A stretch of DNA of 64,000 nucleotides from a virus. Where the stretch lies: positions 25,020-89,019 of IMG/VR virus record IMGVR_UViG_3300032323_000739; one strand, 5' to 3'. A program made the position numbers and the translations under genes. The notes under the pieces are model-generated. The model had not been told where the DNA came from. It saw only the letters and a program-made list of their open reading frames with translations, and did not search any database. Shown here in pieces: positions 24,510 to 61,211 of this stretch (the first letter of the stretch is position 1; every line of letters starts with the position of its first letter).

Positions 24510-25433
24510 ATGAAAATTTTAATGACCGGAACCAGTGGATTTATCGGATCACATCTTAAACCACTGATTGAAAAAAATCATACTTTTTACTCTCTTAAAA
24601 GCGATTTGTTAGATTTTGAAGCAGTAACCAAAGAAGTATTAGATTTTAAACCAGATGTCATAGTACACCTTGGTGCTCGTACAGAAGTTGAAAAAAGTTT
24701 TTATGAGCAAATAACATTTAGTCAAATTAATTATGTTGGTAGCGTCAACTTAATCGAAGCGGCTAGCAAAGTAGAGAATTTTAAAAATTTTGTTTTTGCC
24801 AGTACCATGGAAGTGTATGGCTGGCAACCTATTAGCGACGAAATTAAAGATAACGGTCAACCTTTAAATCATGTTGCGTTTGATGAAAATACCGAACCTC
24901 ACCCTAATGCTCCCTATGCTGTAGCCAAATACGGTGTAGAAAAATATCTTGAATATATGCATCGTAGTTGCGGCTTTCCTTTTAGTGCCATTCGTCAGAC
25001 TAATAGTTATGGTCGTAAAGATAATGATTTCTTTGTTGTAGAACAAATTATTACACAGATGTTAAAAAATCCTAATGAGGTAAATTTTGGTTATGCCGAG
25101 CCTTTTCGCAATTTTATTTTTATTGATGATTTACTTGCCGCTTGGATGACATTAATAGAAGATCCTAACATCGGTAAAACAGGAAAAATTTTTACAGTAG
25201 GACCAGACAATCCTATCAAGATAAAAGATCTAGCCAGCATTATTGCTAAGAAACTAAACTGGAACGGTGCAATTAACTGGAATAAAAAACCTAAGCGTCA
25301 GGGAGAAATTTACTGGTTAAACAGCAACCATAATCTTTTAACTAAACACACTGGGTGGACTCCTAAGGTTAGTTTAAATGACGGCATTGATCGAACTATA
25401 GAAATTTGGAGAAACATTTTACATGTTAAATGA
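24510..25433 (+). CDS. NAD-dependent NDP-sugar epimerase/dehydratase
   Basis: TGTSGFIG, HLGA, ASTMEVYG, PYAVAK, R..N.YG, RNFIFIDD. Confidence 0.9.
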   Translation: MKILMTGTSGFIGSHLKPLIEKNHTFYSLKSDLLDFEAVTKEVLDFKPDVIVHLGARTEVEKSFYEQITFSQINYVGSVNLIEAASKVENFKNFVFASTMEVYGWQPISDEIKDNGQPLNHVAFDENTEPHPNAPYAVAKYGVEKYLEYMHRSCGFPFSAIRQTNSYGRKDNDFFVVEQIITQMLKNPNEVNFGYAEPFRNFIFIDDLLAAWMTLIEDPNIGKTGKIFTVGPDNPIKIKDLASIIAKKLNWNGAINWNKKPKRQGEIYWLNSNHNLLTKHTGWTPKVSLNDGIDRTIEIWRNILHVK

Positions 25434-26547
25434 ACTGCAAACTCATTGGGACAACAAAGTTGTTAATTACAATTTAGAAAAGTATAACTGGCCTGCGTGG
25501 GCGTTAAGTGTCATACAAGAAGTTGCACCACAAGTAAAAGAACTTGAAACAATGCATGAAGTTCTTACTCCCGTTGAGATTGTGCGGGTAAGTCAGCATG
25601 TGCAAAATTCATGCAGTCGTAAAGATTTTATGGAACGATTTGATGAATTTGCCGCAGGCATAGTTCCACAACGAATTGCTGGTAAACGTTACATGATTCA
25701 ACGTCAAGGCACTCTTCGTGTGGTAATTCCCAATCAAGAAAGCGTAGGACGTAGACTGGCGTTTCATCAAGGTATTTTTGTAGGAAATGGTCGCGGTTGT
25801 CGTACTATCTGGACCCCATTTACAGAAGCCAAAGGTACTAATACTATGTGGATGTTAGACTTAGATATTAGTCGAGAAATTACAAAACGTGTGCTTGCTG
25901 AAAAGTGGAGTCTTGAAAAGTTTGAAGAAGAAAGTCTAAAACATGCCTGGCCTGTTACACTGGAACCCGGCCAAAGCCACTTGTTCTTTCAAGAACATAT
26001 ACATGGCAATAAAAATAACACAGAGGGATATACTCGTGTTAGTATGGACATGCGTATTCTTATTGAAGGCGAAGAGTGGGGTCGTAGACTTCCTGGCGGA
26101 TTTATGCGACTGCCAGGCGACTATGAAGTTGCAGACACAATGGACTATACTGGTAAAAGTTTTATTACCTATGCTGGTTGGAATAGTAAGTTTAGTAAAG
26201 ATATTCCATTACCGATGCAACGTGCAATTATAGAGCCATACTGTCAAAAGAATAAGATTGCTTATACAAGTTACGAGTTTGAAAATGAACACATGGACTG
26301 GCAACCTGGACTAGAATACTACATTAAAGAACGTCCAGACGGTATTGTACTGTGCAGTATGTACTGTCTAACAGACGACGTGCAACGACGTAGCGAATTA
26401 CTGCAACTGGCATTAGATCTAGGTGTAGAACTACACTTTGCCAACGAACTAGTAAGTTTAAAGTCAAAGAAAGATTTAGAAAAAATCGAAACCTATCTAA
26501 ACTTTGCTGTACCTAAAAAAGGTCCGCATGTGTGGGAAGAACAATAA
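25423..26547 (+). CDS. Fe/2OG oxygenase (StrG-like) with HxG motif, fused to a C-terminal carbohydrate-cluster domain; candidate halogenase
   Basis: AFHQGIF...IWTPFT...HIHGN...TRVSMDMR. C-terminal IPLPMQR..I..YC...DGIVLCS...LHFANE resembles (from memory) LIC12192/TIGR04323 proteins. Confidence 0.65.
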   Translation: MLNELQTHWDNKVVNYNLEKYNWPAWALSVIQEVAPQVKELETMHEVLTPVEIVRVSQHVQNSCSRKDFMERFDEFAAGIVPQRIAGKRYMIQRQGTLRVVIPNQESVGRRLAFHQGIFVGNGRGCRTIWTPFTEAKGTNTMWMLDLDISREITKRVLAEKWSLEKFEEESLKHAWPVTLEPGQSHLFFQEHIHGNKNNTEGYTRVSMDMRILIEGEEWGRRLPGGFMRLPGDYEVADTMDYTGKSFITYAGWNSKFSKDIPLPMQRAIIEPYCQKNKIAYTSYEFENEHMDWQPGLEYYIKERPDGIVLCSMYCLTDDVQRRSELLQLALDLGVELHFANELVSLKSKKDLEKIETYLNFAVPKKGPHVWEEQ

Positions 26548-27053
26548 TGAATAGAGGGCATATTACGCCATTTTGGAGTATGAGTGATATTAAAGCAGTG
26601 TTATTCACTCCACCTGCAAACGTTTACAACGGTTTTAAATTGATGGATTATCAAGAGGATGTTTATAAAAATATTGATATTTCTATCAACATACACAAAA
26701 CTCTTCCAGATTTTATTAGCAAGGAAATTCTTGAACAAGAGTTTAGTTGGCTAAAAGAAAAAATGTATGCTGTACATCGAATGACTCCGGGTACCGGACT
26801 GCCCGAACACTCTGATAGGTATGAATATTATTCTAAAACTAATAACATTGATGACATTAATCAAATAGAGCGGATAATTGTATTTTTAGAAGATAAAAAA
26901 ATAGGTCACGAGTTTGTTTTAGAAAATTACAAATTTGAGGATTGGAAAGCCGGGGACTGGGTAAGTTGGGTCGGTGGAGCGAATCATGCCGCATACAACG
27001 AAGGTGCGGAAGATCGATATACTATGCAGATTACCGGTATTAAAAAAAGTTAG
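26547..27053 (+). CDS. Small Fe/2OG-type oxygenase (DSBH fold)
   Basis: LPEHSD...HAAYN...RYTMQITG. Confidence 0.65.
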   Translation: MNRGHITPFWSMSDIKAVLFTPPANVYNGFKLMDYQEDVYKNIDISINIHKTLPDFISKEILEQEFSWLKEKMYAVHRMTPGTGLPEHSDRYEYYSKTNNIDDINQIERIIVFLEDKKIGHEFVLENYKFEDWKAGDWVSWVGGANHAAYNEGAEDRYTMQITGIKKS

Positions 27054-28350
27054 AGTTTTTCTTAAGAGATTCTAAATTTTTAAAATTGTGTTCTATAATT
27101 GGTGTCATTTCACTATAGAGTACTTTTAAATCTTCTATTGATTTTGAACTTAGATAGTCAATAACTTTAAATATTTTTATTAATCGCTGTTCGTGATTTT
27201 CTTCTTGGTCATAACTTTCGTCCCAAAAATCACTAAAAGTTTTAAATCCTAGTTTTTTAGCATATTCTAAAGAATAAGGCGGAGCCATTAGTATAAAAGG
27301 TCTAAATGATTTAACTGCATTTAGAGTTTTTTCACTTAACATTCCTGTGGGCTGTGCAAATTTAGTTTCACTGACAACTGCACAAAAACAACTTTGATAT
27401 ACTGATATAGGTAATTCGTTTATGCTAGGACACTCTTGTCTATGAAATACATAATCCATTACTATTGGTCCTTGATTTTGTAACTCCTCGACGCCATTTT
27501 TTATTTTTTTATAAAGTTCTGGGTAGATATTTTGCCAGCGATCGATATCAAACCACAGATTGCTGTTTATTTCTTCAAATGAAACATTGTGTTGCCAAGA
27601 ATATTTTGTTTCTAAATTTTTTATATAACTGATTAATAAATGGCGGTATCCTGTGTATCTCCAGGCACCTGACCAAAATTTGTATTTTATTTTTGAGCAA
27701 TCTGGTATATTAGAATCGGGATTATATGTATAAGTGGTAGTAGAATCAGTACTGTGTTTTAATAATGAGGTTTTAAAAATATCTCGATTTTTAATTTCAA
27801 ACGAATATTTTTCTTTAAAATATTTCTCAACGTTATAGTCAAAGGTATTGACTCTTACCTTTGTTAATCCATTTTTTAACACAAATTTTTTAACACTATC
27901 TAGCTCAAAACAATGTAAATTTTCAATATTTTTTATAGTAGATTCGAAACCATTTATGATATAAACTGAATTTATTATTGGGTTATTATAAGCATCGGTG
28001 TCTTTTAAACTAAACGTATTTTTTTCGCCGATATCAAAAAACAAATTTTCGTAGAAGAAGATGTCCAATCCGTGTTCATTTATATAAGTTACAACATCGT
28101 TAGGTAAAATTAAATTTTCTATTTGAGAAATTTGACCAATGCCTGTATAAACCATAAAAGGCGTTGGATAGTTGTATAGGTAAGTATCTTTGTAGTAGTC
28201 ATCAAAATAATCAAAAAACGAATAATCATTACAAATTTCTTCTTGATTTACAATCTCTCCCGTTTTTAAAATAATAGAAGGCGACTGTATTTTTAAGTCT
28301 TGATATACAACACAAAAATAATAAGGACTTTCAACATCAAAATTTTTCAT
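27040..28350 (-). CDS. Glycosyltransferase-like protein, paralog family X (1 of 4)
   Basis: C-terminal CFCAVVSET...SEKT..A....RPFI...SLEY...GFKTF..FWDESYD; resembles GT-B donor-binding domains. Confidence 0.5.
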   Translation of the reverse strand: MKNFDVESPYYFCVVYQDLKIQSPSIILKTGEIVNQEEICNDYSFFDYFDDYYKDTYLYNYPTPFMVYTGIGQISQIENLILPNDVVTYINEHGLDIFFYENLFFDIGEKNTFSLKDTDAYNNPIINSVYIINGFESTIKNIENLHCFELDSVKKFVLKNGLTKVRVNTFDYNVEKYFKEKYSFEIKNRDIFKTSLLKHSTDSTTTYTYNPDSNIPDCSKIKYKFWSGAWRYTGYRHLLISYIKNLETKYSWQHNVSFEEINSNLWFDIDRWQNIYPELYKKIKNGVEELQNQGPIVMDYVFHRQECPSINELPISVYQSCFCAVVSETKFAQPTGMLSEKTLNAVKSFRPFILMAPPYSLEYAKKLGFKTFSDFWDESYDQEENHEQRLIKIFKVIDYLSSKSIEDLKVLYSEMTPIIEHNFKNLESLKKNSNFF

Positions 28351-29651
28351 AATATAACTGCATTGTTTTTAAACGTAGAAAGATTTTTTAAATTATGTTC
28401 TAAAACTGGTTTAATTTTATCATATAATTCTTTGAGATCCTCGATGCTATAACTATCGATATGGTCAATGAGTTTTAAAATTTTTTCCATGCGGCGTGAG
28501 TGATTAATCTCTGTATCATAACTTTCGTCCCAGACCTCGCCAAAAGTTTTAAAACCCATTAGTTTTAAATATTCTAAAGTGCGTGGAGGAGCAACTAACA
28601 CAAAAGGTCGCATAGCTCTAATTGCGTTTATTGTTTTTTCACTGAACAATCCAGTATCCTGAGTAAACCGAGATTCTGTAACTACTGCACAAAAACATTG
28701 AGCATAAAATTCAATAGGTAATGGATGGGTCCAGTCGGGACTTTTAACACTCGGTTTACTGATTTGTTCAGATGATAAATTTACAATCTCGCCGGGTATA
28801 TCAATGCTAAACGGACCTTTTTGATTTAAATATTTGTTGCCGTTTACTAGTTCATTTTTTTTAAAATCTAACTCAAACCACAATGCTGATAAAAACTCCT
28901 CGGTAGACACGTTATAATTCCAACTAATTAAAGAAGATCGCTGACAAAGATATGCGGCAATTATATTTCTAAATGACGTGTACCTCCAATTTGCAGACCA
29001 AAATTTATACTTGATTTCATCACTGCTAAAATTGGTTCGTATAGGATCAGTATTTTCATTAAACAACGATTGGATAAAAATATCTTTACAAAAAATTTTA
29101 AATTCTTTATATTGATTTGAAAATTTTTCTCTACAATAATAATCGCATGTAAAGACAGAAACATTTGTTAATTTATTTTTAATAACAAACTCTTTAATCG
29201 ATTCAAATTCATAACAGAATAATATTTCACTGTTATCTTTTTCTGAAAAAACTTCTTTAGCAGATTTATTACCTCGATGATAATTGACCGGATCAATGTA
29301 AAATCGGTCATCGGAGTTATTAGTAAATGATAATATTTCGTACAGATATATTTCTAAACCTGTTTGATTAAGTTTTTCAATAACTTTGCTATCTAGTTCT
29401 AACGATTCTAACTGCGGTATATTGCCTATACCTGTGTATATCATGTGTGGCTTTGATATTTTTTCTATAAAGGTACCAGTATATAAATCTTGATAATAAT
29501 CAAAAAAAGTATATTTTTCTGATTGTTGATCGGATCTAAATATCTCTCCGTTTTGAAGAATTAAAATAGGGTCAGAGAACAACTTTTGATACAAAACACA
29601 AAAGTAATGATCGTTTCGAGTATCAAAAGTTTTTCCCGACAATGGTCTCAT
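28347..29651 (-). CDS. Glycosyltransferase-like protein, paralog family X (2 of 4)
   Basis: KFWSANWRY; CFCAVVTES...SEKTINAI...RPF...GFKTF...WDESYD. Confidence 0.5.
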   Translation of the reverse strand: MRPLSGKTFDTRNDHYFCVLYQKLFSDPILILQNGEIFRSDQQSEKYTFFDYYQDLYTGTFIEKISKPHMIYTGIGNIPQLESLELDSKVIEKLNQTGLEIYLYEILSFTNNSDDRFYIDPVNYHRGNKSAKEVFSEKDNSEILFCYEFESIKEFVIKNKLTNVSVFTCDYYCREKFSNQYKEFKIFCKDIFIQSLFNENTDPIRTNFSSDEIKYKFWSANWRYTSFRNIIAAYLCQRSSLISWNYNVSTEEFLSALWFELDFKKNELVNGNKYLNQKGPFSIDIPGEIVNLSSEQISKPSVKSPDWTHPLPIEFYAQCFCAVVTESRFTQDTGLFSEKTINAIRAMRPFVLVAPPRTLEYLKLMGFKTFGEVWDESYDTEINHSRRMEKILKLIDHIDSYSIEDLKELYDKIKPVLEHNLKNLSTFKNNAVIL

Positions 29652-33008: not shown

Positions 33009-33598
33009 TATAATCTCGGATCCCAAGTAGGAAATTCGCACTCCCATTTAGGGAATTTTTTCAGTTGTTCAAAGTATATATCTAAATTTAGGCCCCACAC
33101 TGACTGATTCCATCCCCTGTAAAATACATCTTTGGCTTTGTAAAATGTGCCTTGCTCTACATGTTTAGGAAACCAGATATTATGACTAATTCTACTAGTA
33201 CCTACACTGTTAGCATTACTAGTGCCGTAGAATTTTTTATCTGTTCCGGCCCAGGCAATAGCCGCAGGCATAAAGAATTGACTGGCTACACACTGATGTT
33301 TAAACACAAATCCTCGAACATTGTGCATAGGCTTATGACTGCGATCAGTAAAGCACACAGTCCTTGCTAGTAATCGATAACTGCCGGGACCCATAACATC
33401 ATCAAAACTATGGCAACAAACTCCTCCGATAATTTCTCCGTTGTATTCTAATAACCAGCCGGCCCACTCTCGTTCGTTTTTAAAACAATCAAACATAGTT
33501 TTTTGACTGATATTATTTTCAAAACCTCTGCGAGCACACTCGGCATAAAATTCTGTTAAATCTAAATCTTCAGTAAATGGTATTAATCGATATGTCAT
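33008..33598 (-). CDS. GNAT-like protein
   Basis: WLLEYNGEIIGGVCCHSF...YRLLART pattern. Confidence 0.4.
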   Translation of the reverse strand: MTYRLIPFTEDLDLTEFYAECARRGFENNISQKTMFDCFKNEREWAGWLLEYNGEIIGGVCCHSFDDVMGPGSYRLLARTVCFTDRSHKPMHNVRGFVFKHQCVASQFFMPAAIAWAGTDKKFYGTSNANSVGTSRISHNIWFPKHVEQGTFYKAKDVFYRGWNQSVWGLNLDIYFEQLKKFPKWECEFPTWDPRL

Positions 33599-34899
33599 GT
33601 GCTTTCCTGCCAGTGTGAATTGCGTGACAAACAACGATTTGTAATTTTATTTCTAGCATCTGATATTTCAGTTTTACTATGTAAAAAATTGCTAATCATA
33701 AAATAATTTAAAATAGTGCTAGTGTGTATAAATGCATTATCTAACTTTGAAACTATTAAATCAATTTTTGATAAAAGATCAATATTATGAAACTCTACTT
33801 CTAAATTTTTAAAATGGTCCCAGTTGTTTAATATTTTTTCATTTAATCCTTGATACTTTTGAGACTCGCACTGAGCACTATCTAAGTGCGGTTCAATACC
33901 GATATTTCTTTCTTTTGCCCAGGAGTTAGCGAACTCTTGATAATTTTTTCCGTCCCATGTTTGATATAAAGATTTTTTAAATTCTATATTATTAGGATTT
34001 AAATCATAAAAAATTATTTTCTTAGCATTACTGGTAAGTGCCATGCTTTCACCTAAAAGTCCGTTAGCCGGACTGATTACTACATCTGCTTGTATGTGCG
34101 GAGCATGACAGTCCCAGTGCCACACATTTAAATAATTAAATTCTAAAGCCTTTTTAATAATAGCAATAATCATTATTTGACTTTCATCAAGATCATCTGT
34201 AATTGTTAAAGATTTAAGTGCTGGTTCAAATAATTCTGGACGTATTTTAGGATAAAAATGGCCACGTGCCGGCAAGCGATATCTATCTTTATCAAACCCT
34301 AAGTCGTCAACTAAATCTTCTATAGAAATAAATTTTAAATTATTTTCTGGATATCTCCAGTCTTCGTCAAAGTTAACAACTGTATAGCCTTGGTTTAGTG
34401 CCTCCTCCATAACGGCTGCTCCAAAGTCCATGACTCTTTCTGTTTTTTCTTCTGCCAAATACACACTAAGTGGAGCATGTCCGCAGTTCATGTCGCCGTG
34501 CCCTCGAACAAATCTGGATCCATAATCTTCGTAAGAAGAAAAATTTAATCCTTTAGGAAATGCGCGAGTATTAATAATAAAACATTGATCGTGTAAGTGG
34601 GGAGTGGTGTCCTCGGGGTACCAAATAATATGCCCCATAACTCCGATATTATCAGTTAAACTATGTATTTTATTCCACAAGTGATCTCTGTTAATAATCA
34701 CATCGCCTGCAGTTTCCACAAACAGCCAGTCGGCCTGATCTAAATAATCATTAATTTGTTCATAACTATTCACTGTAACTACTGGATAGTTGCCTTCGCT
34801 AAGTTGATACTGTCCTGCCTCTGTAATCTGTAACATCTTAGCATCTAGCCAAGGATGATTAGTAGAGATCTGTACTGTAATAAAAATAACCCGATTCAT
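33595..34899 (-). CDS. Hypothetical protein; C-terminal half weakly SAM-binding-fold-like
   Basis: 434 aa; SPANGLLG...IIFYDLNPNNIEF. Confidence 0.45.
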   Translation of the reverse strand: MNRVIFITVQISTNHPWLDAKMLQITEAGQYQLSEGNYPVVTVNSYEQINDYLDQADWLFVETAGDVIINRDHLWNKIHSLTDNIGVMGHIIWYPEDTTPHLHDQCFIINTRAFPKGLNFSSYEDYGSRFVRGHGDMNCGHAPLSVYLAEEKTERVMDFGAAVMEEALNQGYTVVNFDEDWRYPENNLKFISIEDLVDDLGFDKDRYRLPARGHFYPKIRPELFEPALKSLTITDDLDESQIMIIAIIKKALEFNYLNVWHWDCHAPHIQADVVISPANGLLGESMALTSNAKKIIFYDLNPNNIEFKKSLYQTWDGKNYQEFANSWAKERNIGIEPHLDSAQCESQKYQGLNEKILNNWDHFKNLEVEFHNIDLLSKIDLIVSKLDNAFIHTSTILNYFMISNFLHSKTEISDARNKITNRCLSRNSHWQEST

Positions 34900-35539
34900 C
34901 TTGTTTTTCCAATGCTTGTTTCATCATGTCTTTCCATTCTGGCGTACTGTCATGATGATGTACTATTAAATGATAACGATCTTCCGTGCTACGATTTTCT
35001 ATACTATGTTCATAACTGAGATTCATAGCATAGGCATCTCCAGGTTTAAAATCAACCTTAGATCCGTCTGTCCACTGCCAAACACAATTAGGATGATTAG
35101 TGAGGGCAATATTTACAGCATCCGGTATAGAGTAAGGACTGTCCCGATGTTGACTAATAAACCCACCTGCTTTTAACAACATAAATCTTACTCTGCCTAA
35201 TTGTTGACTAGGAAAGACATTTTTTAACCAATTTACTGTTACTGGGCATTGCTCTGCAATTTCAGTCCATGTAAAATCTTTAGCAGCCTCGCGTGGACTA
35301 GCGTATCCGTAGGCATCCCAACTCATAGGACGATCTAACCCTAATCCGTATATAGGTAAACTAAACCAATCGTGGTGGTCGTATCCGTCATCTTTTCTAT
35401 ATCTAATAAATTGATCTTTTAACGACTGTGCTTCGGCAGCCATGGCTTCGTGTGGGATTTCCAAATCTAATTTTAAACATTTGGCAGAAGTGTATAGATA
35501 TTCTCTTGCACCTTCTGTATATTCTTTACTAAAATTCAT
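34859..35539 (-). CDS. Asp/Asn beta-hydroxylase-like Fe/2OG oxygenase
   Basis: GRVRFMLL..GG.I.QHRD...HSIEN...RYHLIVH. Confidence 0.8.
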   Translation of the reverse strand: MNFSKEYTEGAREYLYTSAKCLKLDLEIPHEAMAAEAQSLKDQFIRYRKDDGYDHHDWFSLPIYGLGLDRPMSWDAYGYASPREAAKDFTWTEIAEQCPVTVNWLKNVFPSQQLGRVRFMLLKAGGFISQHRDSPYSIPDAVNIALTNHPNCVWQWTDGSKVDFKPGDAYAMNLSYEHSIENRSTEDRYHLIVHHHDSTPEWKDMMKQALEKQDESGYFYYSTDLY

Positions 35540-52249: not shown

Positions 52250-53567
52250 AGAAGATCTTTATTTTTTCTGTGTGTTGTATGAAAATTTAAATCCAGATTC
52301 TATAGAATCTCGTCGACTAATTCTTGAAAACAGCAACGTTTTAAACTATAACGATACAAGATCAAGTTATACTTTTTTTGACTATTACAATGATCATTAT
52401 TGTAATTCTTTTTTAGAAAAATTAAAAATACCGCATCTAATTTATACTGGTTTAGGGTCTATTAAACAATTTGAAACTTTAAACTATGATACTGATACAA
52501 TTGAGCGATTAAATTCAATTGGCCTTCAAATATATCTGTATGAAACTTTAATTTTAGACACAGGTACAAAGAAAAAGTTTTATATGACAGAAAATAAAAC
52601 TTACCCAGGGAATTACATTAACTATCAGATTCAAGATGAATCTTATTATTCTTTTGAGTTAGAAAGTATTAACAATTTTGTTCTAAGAAATAATTTAAAA
52701 AATGTTACAGTTTTTACCTGCGAGGATAATACAAGTAACAAATTTAATAATTATAGTTTTAAAGTAGAGTCTAAAGAAATATTTTTTATTGGTTTGCTAA
52801 AAGAAAGCCAGAGTCGGACTAACGGTTATGAAATAGACTTAACTGTTTTACAAGAGTTTCAGCCAGATTCTATAACTCATAAATTTTGGTCTGGTGCTTG
52901 GAGATATGATACTCATAGACATTTTATTTCTTGCTTTTTAGCAAATAAATCTGCAAAAATCTCTTGGGCATATACTACACCTTTAGAAGAAACACAAAAA
53001 AAGTCTTGGTTTGATTTAAGTAAATGGAAACACACTGAACTAGATATTTTTAATAAATTAAAAACAGGCGATAGCCACTTAGTTAAAAATGCTCCAATAT
53101 GTTTAGATATTCCAATGGAAGCCACCTCGGTTGATTTTGATCAACTATGGACCACTCCGCATAGTGAGGAATTATTTTATCCAAACAGTAATCCTCTACC
53201 CTATAACGAATATTTGTCTTGTTTTTGTGCTGTAGTTACAGAAAGTAATTTTGCACATCCTTTTGCAACATTTACAGAAAAAACAATTAACGCTATTAAA
53301 GCCGGTCGTCCTTTTATTCTTGTTAGTAGTCCAGGCACGCTTGCCTATTTAAAAAAATATGGATTTAAAACCTTTGATGAATTCTGGGATGAAAGTTACG
53401 ATAAAGAAAATAACCACGAACAACGGTTAATAAAAATATTAAAATTAATTGACTACATTGATAGTTTTACTGTAGACGAACTTAAATCTGTCTACAGTAA
53501 AATGTTACCTATCTTAAAACATAACTTTAATTTGCTATTGGAAATTAAACAGCCATTTCTGCTTTAA
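52233..53567 (+). CDS. Glycosyltransferase-like protein, paralog family X (4 of 4)
   Basis: KFWSGAWRY; CFCAVVTES...TEKTINAI...RPFI...GFKTF..FWDESYD. Confidence 0.5.
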   Translation: MVKEFEEDLYFFCVLYENLNPDSIESRRLILENSNVLNYNDTRSSYTFFDYYNDHYCNSFLEKLKIPHLIYTGLGSIKQFETLNYDTDTIERLNSIGLQIYLYETLILDTGTKKKFYMTENKTYPGNYINYQIQDESYYSFELESINNFVLRNNLKNVTVFTCEDNTSNKFNNYSFKVESKEIFFIGLLKESQSRTNGYEIDLTVLQEFQPDSITHKFWSGAWRYDTHRHFISCFLANKSAKISWAYTTPLEETQKKSWFDLSKWKHTELDIFNKLKTGDSHLVKNAPICLDIPMEATSVDFDQLWTTPHSEELFYPNSNPLPYNEYLSCFCAVVTESNFAHPFATFTEKTINAIKAGRPFILVSSPGTLAYLKKYGFKTFDEFWDESYDKENNHEQRLIKILKLIDYIDSFTVDELKSVYSKMLPILKHNFNLLLEIKQPFLL

Positions 53568-54387
53568 TTGTTGGATGAGGATCATATCCTTCTAATACAA
53601 AATCTTCTAGAACATACTCACCTAGTTTTTTATCTACAGTAACAAACAGTGTAGGTAAAGTTCTTTCTTCTCTGCTTAATTGTTCTTTTACAGCGTCTAC
53701 ATGATTTTTGTATATGTGGCAGTCGCCACCAGTCCATATAAATTCACCTACTTTAAGTCCGCACTCGCGAGCAATAATGTGAGTAAGTAAACTATAACTG
53801 GCTATGTTAAAAGGTACACCTAAAAACATATCGCAACTACGCTGATACATCTGACAACTTAGATATCCGTCAGTTACGTCAAATTGGCTTAATACGTGAC
53901 ATGGCGGTAGTGCCATCTGATCTAACTCGCCCGGATTCCATGCTGTCAAGATGTGTCTGCGTCCTGAAGGATCACGCTTAATACCTTCGATCAATCTTTC
54001 AATCTGATCGATATAGTTACCAAGTCTTGGACCCCATTGTCTCCATTGCACTCCGTAAACGCGGCCTAAGTCTCCTTCAAACACTGCATTTGGTTTCCAA
54101 TATTCTGCTTCTGCATTAGCAGTCCAGATAGTTTTCTTTTCTGGATCCCTAGTGCCGTGTAGAATTTCTGCAAGTCTACGTTCGTCGCCACTGCCTTCTA
54201 AAAACCAAAGTAGTTCAGAAACTACTGCCCGCCAGGCAAGTTTTTTAGTAGTAACAGCAGGAAAGCCTTGACGAAGATCAAATCGCATTTGATAACCAAA
54301 TACGGATATTGTACCTACGCCTGTACGATCAGTCTTGTGTTTTCCGTTTTGGAGTATGTGTTCGAGTGCTTGATGATATTGTTTCAT
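53545..54387 (-). CDS. thyA: Thymidylate synthase
   Basis: DRTGVGT, ELLWFL, ALPPCH, YQRSCDMFLGVPFNIASY, HIY.NH. Confidence 0.97.
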   Translation of the reverse strand: MKQYHQALEHILQNGKHKTDRTGVGTISVFGYQMRFDLRQGFPAVTTKKLAWRAVVSELLWFLEGSGDERRLAEILHGTRDPEKKTIWTANAEAEYWKPNAVFEGDLGRVYGVQWRQWGPRLGNYIDQIERLIEGIKRDPSGRRHILTAWNPGELDQMALPPCHVLSQFDVTDGYLSCQMYQRSCDMFLGVPFNIASYSLLTHIIARECGLKVGEFIWTGGDCHIYKNHVDAVKEQLSREERTLPTLFVTVDKKLGEYVLEDFVLEGYDPHPTIKAEMAV

Positions 54388-57618: not shown

Positions 57619-58713
57619 TTAGTTCTTGTGCTGAGCAGCCGCAATGTACTTGCCAAATTTGTCGTGAAACTCGTCAAAGCAGTCAATTTCGTCTGGATCC
57701 AACGGAAGTTGATATTGGGTAAGAGCAAGTTTGGTGCCCATAACTACCAATTCAGTTTCAAAATTGTCCATCATAAAACGGAAGAAATGATTAACTTTTT
57801 CGTTAAACTTCTTATCGTTTTTGTCAGATGAGTCTTTAAGCTCGTAGCACAGAGATACAGTTAGTGAGTACATGGCTGAGATCTCTTTGGTATCCATCTT
57901 TTTAACTTTACCTGCTAGGATGTCCTCAGGTTTTGGCATCTTACTGGCAATCTTGCGATGAGCCATAAACTTAACAGCCAATCCTTCGCCGACGGCACCG
58001 GACACTAGATCCATAAGAACTGTTTCGTCAGTATCGTCGTCTTCTAGCAGTTCAGATACAAAACTCCAAGAACGGGGAGTAGCAAAACTACGACTTGCAG
58101 ATTTTGGATCAAAGTCGTACAAATCTTTTTTGGCAAACGTGCAGTAACCAACTACGTCTCTGTGAACACGATTATCGGTAGCCCATTGTGACCAGTCGTC
58201 AAAGTCCACACGCATTTCCAAATGTAGGAAACGATTAGCCAACGGAGCAGGCATACGATATGTTACACCTTTATCTGCTTCTCTGTTACCAGCGGCAACG
58301 ATTAGAACATTATCTGGCAGATGATACTGACCCACACGACGATTCAAAATAAGTTGATAAGCCGCCGCTTGTACACTGGGTGCGGCACTGTTCATTTCGT
58401 CAAGGAACAAAATGACATTTGGAAATTGACTAGCAAATTCGTTGTTGGGCAGTTCGGAAGGAGCACCCCAAACCATAGTACCTGAGTTGCTGTCAAAATA
58501 AGGAATACCCTTAATATCAGTAGGTTCCCAAAGACTCAAACGAATGTCAATTACATGAGCCGACATTTCTGCACCAATTTGGTGAATAATATCAGACTTG
58601 CCAATTCCTGGGGGACCCCAAAGGAAAATTGGACGCTGTTTCTTAAATGCCTTACGGATAGCGTTTTTAGCACCATTAGGACTGACTTGACGATTGATAA
58701 TTTCTGCTGCCAT
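57619..58713 (-). CDS. MoxR-like AAA+ ATPase
   Basis: WGPPGIGKS, LFLDEMN, AAGNR, PLANRF, TPRSW. Confidence 0.9.
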   Translation of the reverse strand: MAAEIINRQVSPNGAKNAIRKAFKKQRPIFLWGPPGIGKSDIIHQIGAEMSAHVIDIRLSLWEPTDIKGIPYFDSNSGTMVWGAPSELPNNEFASQFPNVILFLDEMNSAAPSVQAAAYQLILNRRVGQYHLPDNVLIVAAGNREADKGVTYRMPAPLANRFLHLEMRVDFDDWSQWATDNRVHRDVVGYCTFAKKDLYDFDPKSASRSFATPRSWSFVSELLEDDDTDETVLMDLVSGAVGEGLAVKFMAHRKIASKMPKPEDILAGKVKKMDTKEISAMYSLTVSLCYELKDSSDKNDKKFNEKVNHFFRFMMDNFETELVVMGTKLALTQYQLPLDPDEIDCFDEFHDKFGKYIAAAQHKN

Positions 58714-59786: not shown

Positions 59787-60246
59787 TGGATAACCTCTGT
59801 TTCATTTCTAACTCTGTTCTAAATGGTCCTTCATATACATTTCTTTCAATAGTAATTAATTTAGGACAAAAACTTTTTACCCACCCTTTATTAAACTTAA
59901 TAATATAGTATCCTGCACAATAAACTGATTTTGATTTTCCGCTTTTTGTAAATAACGGAAGATTGCGTCTTACATCAAACATTGGATTGTGTGGTTCGCT
60001 ACTTGCTGGATAACTGTGTACTTCTTTTTCGATGTTTTGTTTAACTTCAAACGATTTGGTTACAAAGAAATCTTTTCCAAAAGTTTCAAATAGTTTTTTC
60101 TTATTGTCGAACGTAGTAATTTTATCTTTACTACTAAAGACATATTTTTTTTGTTCAGTGACTTTAAGAATTCCAACTTTATTTCCGTGATCTTCGACGA
60201 TCCAGAATTTACCATCTACAATGGGTTTAGCATGTAATTCATTCAT
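59773..60246 (-). CDS. Hypothetical protein
   Basis: 157 aa; ATGA coupling to the upstream nuclease gene. Confidence 0.6.
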   Translation of the reverse strand: MNELHAKPIVDGKFWIVEDHGNKVGILKVTEQKKYVFSSKDKITTFDNKKKLFETFGKDFFVTKSFEVKQNIEKEVHSYPASSEPHNPMFDVRRNLPLFTKSGKSKSVYCAGYYIIKFNKGWVKSFCPKLITIERNVYEGPFRTELEMKQRLSNVSK

Positions 60247-61211
60247 TTATGATACCTCGCATTTAATGGTTCGGCATATTGTTGTGCCTGTTCAGAAATT
60301 TTCTTAAGATCATATAGTTGGCAAAATTTAAGTAAACGAATACCAACTTGACTAACACTTTTTTCTTTATCAATATTTTCTTTAATAGTGCCAAATATTT
60401 TTTCTTTAATATCGTCTGGTTGTTGTGTAAGGTCAATCAATCTACGATTACGTTCGTAATCCTCTAGTACACGATGTTCTTCGCCATTATGATCGACCCA
60501 ACGTTGTAGCATGAGATTGTTCCATGCAAATCCTTTATTTTGTCTATCTCGAAACGCTTCTTCTAATTTGTTTTTACGAACTTTTGGATATGCAGAAAAT
60601 ACGTTGTCACTGCTGTCTCCACGAATACATTTTTCAAACAATAGCCACTGCGGATCTGGAATAGCCTTAGGCTCTTTAGTTTTAGTATCTAAAACACGAT
60701 TTCCTTTTTTATCAAAAATACCTTCATGTGTAATGTGATGTTCCATTACACCATTATACTGGCTTACATTAGGTGCAATAAGTTGAACAAAGTCGCTGTC
60801 AGTACTGATAATAACGTGCTTTGAGTCAGGATGACTTTGAATCCAGCCAGCAATTAAGTCATCGGCTTCTAATTGAGGATTCTGTAGTACAGTACAGTTA
60901 GTCTTTTCTGCAATAAAATCTTTGAACATGTCAAAACTTTCCCAGAACAATTGATCCTCTTCTTGTTCTTTAGGCGTCAGAGCCGCACGAGCATCACTGC
61001 GATTTCGTTTATACGGTTCGTAGTAATCCTTACGCCAACTACGACCTTCAAGACAAAATACTACGTGACTACCTTCAAAGTCCTGCCATGCTTTTTTGAT
61101 ACTGTTTAGTGTGATATGAAATGCCATGCCAAGTTTAATATCAGCATCGCCCTTAATTACATGTCTAGCACGGAAAAATGTGTTAGCAGTATCAACTAGA
61201 ATATATGTCAT
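60243..61211 (-). CDS. rnh: T4 RNase H-like 5'-3' exonuclease/flap nuclease
   Basis: ILVDTAN, WRK..Y..YK.NR, LEADDLI, ISTDSDFVQL, RGDSSDNV. Confidence 0.9.
   Translation of the reverse strand: MTYILVDTANTFFRARHVIKGDADIKLGMAFHITLNSIKKAWQDFEGSHVVFCLEGRSWRKDYYEPYKRNRSDARAALTPKEQEEDQLFWESFDMFKDFIAEKTNCTVLQNPQLEADDLIAGWIQSHPDSKHVIISTDSDFVQLIAPNVSQYNGVMEHHITHEGIFDKKGNRVLDTKTKEPKAIPDPQWLLFEKCIRGDSSDNVFSAYPKVRKNKLEEAFRDRQNKGFAWNNLMLQRWVDHNGEEHRVLEDYERNRRLIDLTQQPDDIKEKIFGTIKENIDKEKSVSQVGIRLLKFCQLYDLKKISEQAQQYAEPLNARYHK

What the first reader, a model, noticed from the sequence alone, without database searches (positions are those of the whole stretch)
25423..26547. Fe/2OG enzyme with the halogenase-type H-Q-G motif beside an NDP-sugar epimerase
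Seen: codons CAT CAA GGT (25765-25773) give AFHQGIF where the HxD/E iron ligand is expected; the distal His (HIHGN) and the 2OG-binding Arg (TRVSMD) remain. The six other Fe/2OG-type ORFs here all have HxD. Known: replacing the carboxylate with Gly/Ala opens a chloride site in Fe/2OG halogenases (SyrB2 HQA; WelO5 and BesD HxG). Inference: a phage radical halogenase acting on an NDP-sugar or cyclitol. It is also fused to a domain that I recall as a separate partner gene in sporadic carbohydrate clusters.
Basis: partly seen in the sequence, partly recalled or inferred. Interest (0 to 1): 0.82.

Follow-up and report, generated by a model that had tools for sequence, protein, structure and literature searches.

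The report
Phage iron oxygenase lacking its carboxylate ligand
A gene in an uncultured jumbo phage encodes an iron/2-oxoglutarate enzyme whose usual aspartate iron ligand is replaced by a conserved glycine, which is the hallmark of radical halogenases, so it is a good but unproven candidate for the first such enzyme from a virus acting on a sugar-type substrate.

Summary
ORF 25423-26547 (374 aa) has H115-Q116-G117 exactly where its family and the solved relative PtlH have the HxD iron ligands. The distal His194 and the 2OG-binding Arg205/Ser207 are kept.

The glycine is not a one-off:
- All 80 related viral loci keep HQG, using three synonymous Gly codons.
- 181 of 183 close proteins keep it.
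- The wider family (NCBIfam TIGR04324) is HxD.
- All HxG forms fall in one sub-clade that also holds HxD forms, and the D/G state has switched several times (AU test p = 0.0002).
- No acidic residue is gained elsewhere.
- Gln190, four residues before the distal His, accompanies Gly117 in 30 of 31 non-redundant HxG sequences but only 3 of 71 HxD sequences.

The fold is PhyH-like. The C-terminal LIC12192 domain has a resolvase-like fold, and fusion to it is common in the family.

Halogenase function is plausible (about 0.45) but unproven. Human AspH is a natural HxG hydroxylase, so a halide-independent 2-His oxygenase is nearly as likely. The substrate is unknown. A translationally coupled NDP-hexose dehydratase-like SDR suggests a nucleotide sugar.

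The parts
25423..26547 (+). Whole gene: 374-aa two-domain protein (Fe/2OG oxygenase domain plus LIC12192-type domain)
   Evidence: AF2 model has mean pLDDT 97 and pTM 0.92.
25423..26136 (+). N-terminal PhyH-like double-stranded beta-helix Fe(II)/2OG domain (residues 1-238)
   Evidence: TIGR04324 matches residues 31-212, E 9e-20. Structural matches: PtlH Z 14.5; CurA Hal Foldseek E 3e-9; SyrB2 1e-7.
25765..25773 (+). H115-Q116-G117: proximal His ligand, with Gly in place of the Asp/Glu ligand
25990..25992 (+). Gln190, in the turn four residues before the distal His. It co-occurs with Gly117 across the family.
   Evidence: Codons are CAA 59 and CAG 21 in viral loci.
26002..26004 (+). His194, the distal iron ligand (invariant)
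26035..26043 (+). Arg205-Val-Ser207, the 2OG C5-carboxylate binding motif (Arg invariant, Ser at least 90% conserved)
26155..26544 (+). C-terminal LIC12192/TIGR04323 domain with a serine-recombinase (resolvase) catalytic-domain fold
   Evidence: TIGR04323 E 2e-13. AF2 pLDDT 95. 4bqq Z 12.9, 3bvp Z 12.0. Foldseek gives the same family.
24510..25433 (+). Upstream extended SDR. Its best matches are dTDP-glucose 4,6-dehydratase and LegB. It overlaps the start of the gene by 11 nt.
   Evidence: It lies directly upstream in 17 of 30 long related loci.
26532..27053 (+). Downstream small cupin-like ORF with HSD...H. It overlaps the gene's end.
   Evidence: It is present nearby in 17 of 30 long related loci, and directly downstream in those that share the window's gene order.

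Best explanation
Shown:
- The protein is a catalytically equipped PhyH-fold Fe(II)/2-oxoglutarate enzyme of the uncharacterised 'sporadic carbohydrate cluster' family (TIGR04324).
- It is fused to its usual partner domain (TIGR04323, resolvase-like fold).
- It keeps both His ligands and the Arg/Ser that hold 2OG.
- The carboxylate ligand is replaced by Gly117, and no other acidic residue takes over.

Inferred: the vacated iron site is filled by an exogenous anion, most likely chloride or bromide. Gln190, in the turn before the distal His, would donate a hydrogen bond to that anion. After 2OG decarboxylation the Fe(IV)=O would abstract a hydrogen atom and the substrate radical would rebound onto the halide, giving a C-halogen bond.

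Inferred more weakly: the substrate is a nucleotide-activated deoxy-sugar or a related carbohydrate or cyclitol intermediate made by the translationally coupled SDR (24510) and the surrounding phage biosynthetic island. The C-terminal domain would help bind or present it.
For: - Ligand position: one search aligns the family's FH-x-D, distal H and R-x-S on the matching motifs of PtlH (2rdn, E 3e-8).
- Conservation: HQG in 80 of 80 viral loci with three Gly codons and in 118 of the 120 closest protein clusters.
- Derived state: all 43 representatives in the sister clade, and the four basal rows of the query's own clade, have HxD. All 28 HxG rows sit in one sub-clade with SH-aLRT 94.
- No replacement carboxylate: the only acidic columns conserved in HxG rows (D209, E287, E342) are equally conserved in HxD rows.
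- Gln190 occurs in 30 of 31 non-redundant HxG sequences against 3 of 71 HxD sequences.
- Gln190 is retained in some HxD revertants, so it sits beside the ligand site rather than in it.
- The fold is PhyH-like, the same superfamily as SyrB2, CytC3 and CurA Hal, which are Foldseek's top hits.
- HXG/A is the motif the field uses to mine halogenases, with experimental successes (PMC11186838; PMC12871659; PMC8407142).
Against: - No halide-binding or product data exist.
- AspH is a natural HXG...H hydroxylase.
- D-to-G alone rarely gives halogenation in engineered enzymes.
- In this clade the D/G state has flipped at least 4-7 times. Such flips might be easier if the third ligand matters little.
- One HxG sequence has Glu at position 190 (P0340, a singleton). 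That would fit residue 190 acting as a metal ligand rather than a halide hydrogen-bond donor.
- VIA-align ranks the hydroxylase PtlH above all halogenases.
- To my knowledge, halogenated sugars and cyclitols are almost unknown in nature.
- I could not read model coordinates, so the distance from Gln190 to the iron site is not measured.
Confidence: 0.45

Rival explanations
1. It is a halide-independent Fe/2OG oxygenase with a two-histidine iron site. The third position would be filled by water (as in AspH) or by the carboxamide oxygen of Gln190 (a relocated ligand). It would hydroxylate, desaturate, epimerise or otherwise oxidise the sugar-type substrate just as its HxD relatives do.
For: - AspH is a natural HXG...H hydroxylase, and its single-His variants are still active (PMC10947486).
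- The D/G state switches repeatedly among otherwise similar sequences, suggesting the carboxylate is dispensable here.
- Position 190 changes from a small residue (S/N/A/T/P) in HxD forms to Gln when Gly117 is present. It is Glu in one sequence, and Gln and Glu are isosteric O-donors.
- Gln ligation of iron has a precedent in resting isopenicillin N synthase (from my own knowledge).
- The best structural match by Z-score is a hydroxylase.
Against: - AspH belongs to a different family (PF05118), and the query matches no Pfam family.
- Every other characterised natural HxG/A clade that I know of is a halogenase.
- Gln190 coexists with Asp117 in three lineages (P0131, P0317, P0334), so it need not occupy the ligand position.
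- The Glu190 case is a single sequence on a 1.8-kb contig.
- A neutral amide would leave the site short of the negative charge that a carboxylate or halide supplies.
Confidence: 0.4
2. It is a non-catalytic or metal-free derivative: a substrate-binding or scaffold subunit that has lost full iron binding, retained for its partner domain.
For: The loss of one of three metal ligands is what many pseudo-enzymes of this superfamily show.
Against: - H115, H194 and R205 are invariant, and S207, D209, G121 and G123 are at least 90% conserved across 81 diverse sequences, including all HxG rows.
- Strong purifying selection acts on Gly117 and Gln190 themselves.
- The AF2 model is very confident.
Confidence: 0.07
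3. The HxG is a sequencing or assembly error, or a private mutation of this contig.
For: None was found.
Against: 80 of 80 independent viral contigs and 181 protein clusters carry it, with synonymous codon variation.
Confidence: 0.01

Closest known systems
NCBIfam TIGR04324 (sporadic carbohydrate cluster 2OG-Fe(II) oxygenase) with TIGR04323 (LIC12192 family partner)
   Same: Both halves match these two models (E 9e-20 and 2e-13). The domain order and the ~370-aa fused architecture are shared with many family members. The context is carbohydrate-type.
   Different: Scores are below the curated cut-offs (71 against 150 bits; 51 against 55 bits). The family consensus is FH(T/S/N)DxWYGHG with Asp, whereas this clade has Gly117 plus Gln190. 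No member of either family has been characterised biochemically, as far as I could find (no paper holds the family name).
PhyH-superfamily carrier-dependent halogenases SyrB2, CytC3 and CurA Hal
   Same: Same fold class. They are Foldseek's top PDB hits (3nnj E 3e-9, 2fct 1e-7). The carboxylate ligand is replaced by a small residue (HxA/G), with the distal His and 2OG Arg retained.
   Different: - Sequence similarity is insignificant (CytC3 E 1.5 with the family profile).
- There is no carrier protein or NRPS/PKS context.
- A resolvase-fold domain is fused instead.
- The neighbours are sugar enzymes.
Free-substrate halogenases WelO5, BesD, AdaV/AdeV and plant DAH
   Same: They share the HxG motif and act on free small molecules. 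AdaV acts on a nucleotide (dAMP), showing that sugar C-H bonds can be chlorinated (PMC11186838, PMC8407142). Each arose from HxD hydroxylase ancestors.
   Different: The lineages are unrelated at sequence level. WelO5 appears only far down the structural list (rank 45). No halogenated product is known for this system.
Human aspartate/asparagine beta-hydroxylase AspH
   Same: It has a natural HXG...H two-histidine iron site (PMC10947486).
   Different: It belongs to a different family (PF05118) and hydroxylates a protein substrate. The window's own PF05118-type ORF (34859-35539) has HRD.
PtlH (1-deoxypentalenic acid 11-beta-hydroxylase, PDB 2rdn)
   Same: It is the closest solved relative by sequence profile (E 3e-8) and by VIA-align (Z 14.5, 214 residues, rmsd 3.6). 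The motif-by-motif alignment fixes the ligand positions.
   Different: PtlH has the full His-Asp-His triad, and Ala where this protein has Gln190. It has no C-terminal partner domain and acts on a terpenoid substrate.

Membership tests
Fe(II)/2OG oxygenase superfamily, PhyH-like branch | Double-stranded beta-helix fold | tested here: met
   AF2 pLDDT 97. PtlH Z 14.5. Hundreds of PhyH-type chains match at Foldseek E < 1e-3.
Fe(II)/2OG oxygenase superfamily, PhyH-like branch | Proximal and distal His iron ligands | tested here: met
   H115 and H194 are invariant in 81 sequences and align on the PtlH motif histidines.
Fe(II)/2OG oxygenase superfamily, PhyH-like branch | Asp/Glu carboxylate ligand two residues after the proximal His | tested here: not met
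   Gly117. No substitute acidic column exists.
Fe(II)/2OG oxygenase superfamily, PhyH-like branch | Arg (and Ser) binding the 2OG C5 carboxylate after the distal His | tested here: met
   R205 is invariant and S207 is at least 90% conserved. They align on the PtlH MRMSMD motif.
NCBIfam TIGR04324 / TIGR04323 | Score at or above the curated cut-off | tested here: not met
   71.3 bits against a cut-off of 150, and 50.7 against 55. It is a clear relative but outside the curated boundaries.
Fe/2OG halogenases | Gly or Ala at the carboxylate-ligand position, conserved in the clade | tested here: met
Fe/2OG halogenases | Halide bound to iron; halide-dependent formation of a C-halogen product | not testable with these tools
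   This needs enzyme assays or a structure. The available tools give no model coordinates and no chloride ligand.
Fe/2OG halogenases | Descent from, or specific similarity to, a characterised halogenase lineage | tested here: inconclusive
   Foldseek puts CurA Hal and SyrB2 first, but VIA-align puts hydroxylases first. By sequence profile, CytC3 scores only E 1.5.
AspH-type two-His hydroxylases (PF05118) | Match to the Asp_Arg_Hydrox family | tested here: not met
   The query has no Pfam hit at E <= 1.
Serine recombinase catalytic domain (C-terminal domain only) | Resolvase-like alpha/beta fold | tested here: met
   4bqq Z 12.9, 3bvp Z 12.0, 3guv Z 11.6. Foldseek gives the same family.
Serine recombinase catalytic domain (C-terminal domain only) | Catalytic Ser/Arg motif after strand 1, plus a DNA-binding domain | not tested
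   By eye, the segment after strand 1 (YAGWNSKFSKD...QR) does not show the Y-x-R-V-S motif, and the protein ends without a further domain. No residue-level structural alignment was available.

The most novel reading that the evidence does not exclude
A previously unrecognised, widespread clade of Fe/2OG radical halogenases, carried by uncultured jumbo phages and some marine bacteria, chlorinates or brominates a nucleotide-sugar or cyclitol intermediate. Natural orthologues toggle repeatedly between Asp (hydroxylase) and Gly+Gln190 (halogenase). This would be the first viral Fe/2OG halogenase and the first acting in carbohydrate biosynthesis. It would also be a natural experiment on what sets hydroxylation against halogenation.
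Probability: 0.4. Interest if true: 0.85.

Novelty: new variant of a known kind. Interest (0 to 1): 0.66.

Why it matters
Fe/2OG halogenases are sought-after catalysts for selective C-H halogenation, and few independent lineages are known. None is viral and none acts on sugar nucleotides or cyclitols.

This clade offers more than 180 natural HxG sequences alongside natural HxD relatives in the same sub-clade (29-41% identical to this protein), plus a candidate second-sphere determinant (Gln190). That makes the question of what turns a hydroxylase into a halogenase directly testable with natural sequences.

If the enzyme instead proves to be a halide-independent two-His oxygenase, it would be a second natural example after AspH. 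That would be a caution for motif-based halogenase mining.

For phage biology, it is part of a very large phage-encoded carbohydrate/cyclitol tailoring island whose product is unknown.

Tried and rejected
- Pfam gives no hit for the protein. PHROGs gives nothing meaningful.
- tblastn against 50,697 deposited phage genomes found no match.
- The search for related loci with the diverse alignment failed because there was no conserved 7-10-residue stretch.
- Viral-contig scans with the in-clade HxD proteins P0125 and P0128 found nothing.
- I looked for a compensating acidic residue specific to HxG sequences. There is none.
- I tested whether Glu191 could be that residue. It is not conserved among HxG rows (E, Q, G, D or A).
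- The independent-contrast test for the Gly117-Gln190 coupling has only four supported contrasts. Gln190 goes the same way in 3.8 of 4, p = 0.125, which is not significant on its own.
- Literature searches for the family name, for the PtlH ligand numbering and for the SyrB2 chloride-pocket residues returned nothing usable. My statements on PtlH H137/D139/H226 and on SyrB2 Ser231 lining the chloride pocket therefore rest on memory. The PtlH numbering is consistent with the alignment after a 3-residue offset.
- The predicted model's coordinates cannot be read, so the geometry of Gln190 relative to the iron site was not measured.
- NCBIfam found no family for the neighbouring unknown ORFs or for the neighbours of the bacterial HKD homologue.

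Full report
**1. What is there**

The window lies in an IMG/VR virus record of 89 kb that CheckV rates 24% complete. Tail-fibre and virion genes sit at the window's left end. An AAA ATPase at 57622-58713 is 51.5% identical to that of the 287-kb Pseudomonas jumbo phage PA5oct. The window is therefore part of an uncultured jumbo phage.

ORF 25423..26547 (+) encodes 374 aa. Codons CAT CAA GGT at 25765-25773 give H115-Q116-G117. HIHGN gives His194, and TRVSMD gives Arg205 and Ser207. The ATG lies 11 nt inside the end of the preceding gene.

**2. Family and fold**

Pfam finds nothing. NCBIfam matches two models:
- TIGR04324, 'sporadic carbohydrate cluster 2OG-Fe(II) oxygenase', to residues 31-212 (E 9e-20).
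- TIGR04323, 'LIC12192 family sporadic carbohydrate cluster protein', to residues 260-359 (E 2e-13).

Both scores are below the curated cut-offs.

AlphaFold2 with an 81-sequence alignment gives pLDDT 97 and pTM 0.92. Residues 1-238 are a PhyH-type double-stranded beta-helix:
- VIA-align ranks PtlH best (Z 14.5), followed by FtmOx1, MysH, GriE and others.
- Foldseek ranks the halogenases CurA Hal (E 3e-9) and SyrB2 (1e-7) among the top hits, alongside ThoJ, GriE, EctD and PtlH.

Modelled alone (pLDDT 95), the C-terminal domain has the fold of the serine-recombinase catalytic domain. The matches are phiC31-type 4bqq Z 12.9, TP901-1 3bvp Z 12.0 and 3guv Z 11.6, and Foldseek agrees. Its role is unknown.

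**3. Is Gly117 at the ligand position?**

A profile of the family hits PtlH (2rdn) at E 3e-8. It aligns the family motifs as follows:
- 'FHtDew' on PtlH 'FHQDGF'.
- The distal 'HG' on PtlH 'CHKS'.
- 'TRvSfDfR' on 'MRMSMDTR'.

With a 3-residue offset, the aligned PtlH residues are His137, Asp139 and His226, which I recall as its iron ligands. Gly117 therefore replaces the carboxylate ligand.

**4. Is it a one-off?**

It is not.
- Of the 120 closest protein clusters (81-100% identity), 118 read HQG, one reads HQC, and one did not match the search pattern.
- A scan of IMG/VR found 130 viral contigs with a 72-93% identical gene.
- In all 80 fetched loci the triplet is HQG, with Gly codons GGT 51, GGC 22 and GGA 7. 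This shows purifying selection on glycine.
- No deposited phage genome holds a homologue.

**5. Evolution of the motif**

I searched 1.84 billion 50%-identity representatives and aligned the results.
- The wider family has FH(T/S/N)DxWYGHG, that is HxD.
- H115, H194 and R205 are invariant. S207, D209, G121 and G123 are at least 90% conserved.

On a tree built without the motif columns:
- All 28 HxG rows fall in one 34-row sub-clade (SH-aLRT 94).
- That sub-clade also holds six HxD rows.
- The 43-row sister clade and the four basal rows are all HxD.
- At least 7 changes of state are needed, 4 of them forced by strongly supported branches.
- Forcing the HxG rows into one clade is rejected (delta lnL 208, AU p = 0.00017).

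The in-clade HxD forms are real populations. P0128 (HKD) has 12 members on 10 contigs, and it lies in a low-GC bacterial contig just after sufBCDS. An HTG form lies in a Planctomycetota MAG beside another PhyH dioxygenase and a GT2 glycosyltransferase.

The Gly state is therefore derived. It has been gained and/or reverted several times, and it occurs in both bacteria and phages.

**6. A coupled residue**

The column most tied to the D/G state is 190, four residues before the distal His. Over 102 sequences made non-redundant at 70% identity:

| Motif state | Sequences | Residue at position 190 |
|---|---|---|
| HxG | 31 | Gln in 30; Glu in 1 (P0340, a singleton) |
| HxD | 71 | Gln in 3; Glu in 1; otherwise mostly S, N, A, T, P or G |

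Further observations:
- Among in-clade HxD lineages, some keep Gln190 (P0131, P0317, P0334). Others have lost it (P0128 and its kin have Ser).
- Only four well-supported independent contrasts exist. Gln190 goes with Gly in 3.8 of 4 and never the other way, but this cannot reach significance.
- No acidic column is specific to HxG sequences.

My reading, which is inference: residue 190 lies next to the third-ligand site. It is required when the carboxylate is absent and dispensable when it is present. It could hydrogen-bond an exogenous anion, or it could itself touch the metal.

From memory, the equivalent position in SyrB2 (Ser231, four residues before His235) lines the chloride pocket. I could not verify this in the library.

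**7. Context**

- The upstream gene is an extended SDR. Its best matches are dTDP-glucose 4,6-dehydratase and LegB, far below the equivalog cut-offs.
- That SDR is directly upstream in 17 of 30 long related loci. The small HSD cupin at 26532 is nearby in 17 of 30.
- The gene sits in a large island that includes:
  - a kinase;
  - a DHQ-synthase-type sugar-phosphate cyclase;
  - an SDR;
  - a GDSL hydrolase;
  - at least ten radical-SAM proteins;
  - a DegT-type fragment;
  - a P-loop kinase/nucleotidyltransferase;
  - an Asp/Arg-hydroxylase-type cupin.
- A carbohydrate or cyclitol substrate is therefore plausible but not shown.

**8. Mechanism and rivals**

The literature treats HXG/A as the halogenase signature. 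However, AspH is a natural HXG...H hydroxylase. Most D-to-G mutants of hydroxylases do not halogenate, and the landscape between the two activities is described as rugged.

| Reading | Probability |
|---|---|
| Halide-binding radical halogenase | about 0.45 |
| Halide-independent two-His (or His2-Gln) oxygenase | about 0.40 |
| Inactive protein | about 0.07 |
| Sequencing or assembly artefact | about 0.01 |

- Points favouring the halogenase:
  - Gly117 and Gln190 are strictly conserved.
  - No replacement carboxylate exists.
  - Gln190 coexists with Asp117, which suggests a second-sphere position.
  - A lost negative charge is naturally replaced by an anion.
- Points favouring the oxygenase:
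  - The AspH precedent.
  - The repeated D/G toggling.
  - The single Glu190 variant.
  - The rarity of halogenated carbohydrates.

**9. Verdict**

- The halogenase interpretation is a well-founded hypothesis but not a result.
- The fusion is a common architecture of the family, not a peculiarity of this gene.
- The finding is a new variant (Gly117/Gln190) within an uncharacterised branch of a known superfamily.

Noticed in passing
window 6500-53600: A very large phage biosynthetic island. It holds at least ten radical-SAM proteins (e.g. 10121, 21336, 23580, 35591, 40513, 43752, 45004, 48588, 51041, 61639). It also holds a DHQ-synthase-type cyclase (18967), an APH/fructosamine-type kinase (18011), SDRs (20025, 24510), a GDSL hydrolase (22331), a DegT fragment (32415), a P-loop kinase/nucleotidyltransferase fusion (31582) and several cupins. 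The product is unknown.
   Followed up: partly
window 26155-26544: The LIC12192/TIGR04323 domain, a protein family of unknown function, is predicted with high confidence to have the serine-recombinase (resolvase) catalytic-domain fold. It sits in a carbohydrate-enzyme context with no DNA-binding domain.
   Followed up: partly
window 27040-29651 and 33595-34899 (minus strand): Three ORFs of 434-436 aa. The two adjacent ones (27040, 28347) are visibly paralogous. None has a Pfam or NCBIfam match. The adjacent pair recurs in 4 of 30 related loci.
   Followed up: no
protein P0340 (metagenomic, 379 aa, 1.8-kb contig): This is the only HxG family member with Glu instead of Gln at position 190 (HQG ... 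TEGNIHG). It is either a relocated carboxylate ligand or an error.
   Followed up: no
protein P0080 (84% identical to the query; cluster of 9 sequences): It reads HQC: cysteine at the ligand position instead of glycine.
   Followed up: no
L082:9992-11230 (Planctomycetota MAG JBCDGE010000092): The bacterial HTG homologue has an in-frame stop inside its C-terminal domain (HFVN*DVV), where the 83% identical P0148 reads E. It may be a pseudogene or a sequencing error. It lies directly after a separate PhyH-family dioxygenase and next to a 1174-aa GT2 glycosyltransferase.
   Followed up: partly
window 53545-54387, 57619-58713 and 60243-61211 (minus strand): A thymidylate synthase, a MoxR/AAA ATPase (51.5% identical to that of jumbo phage PA5oct) and a 5'-3' exonuclease mark the start of the phage's replication/nucleotide module to the right of the island.
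   Followed up: partly
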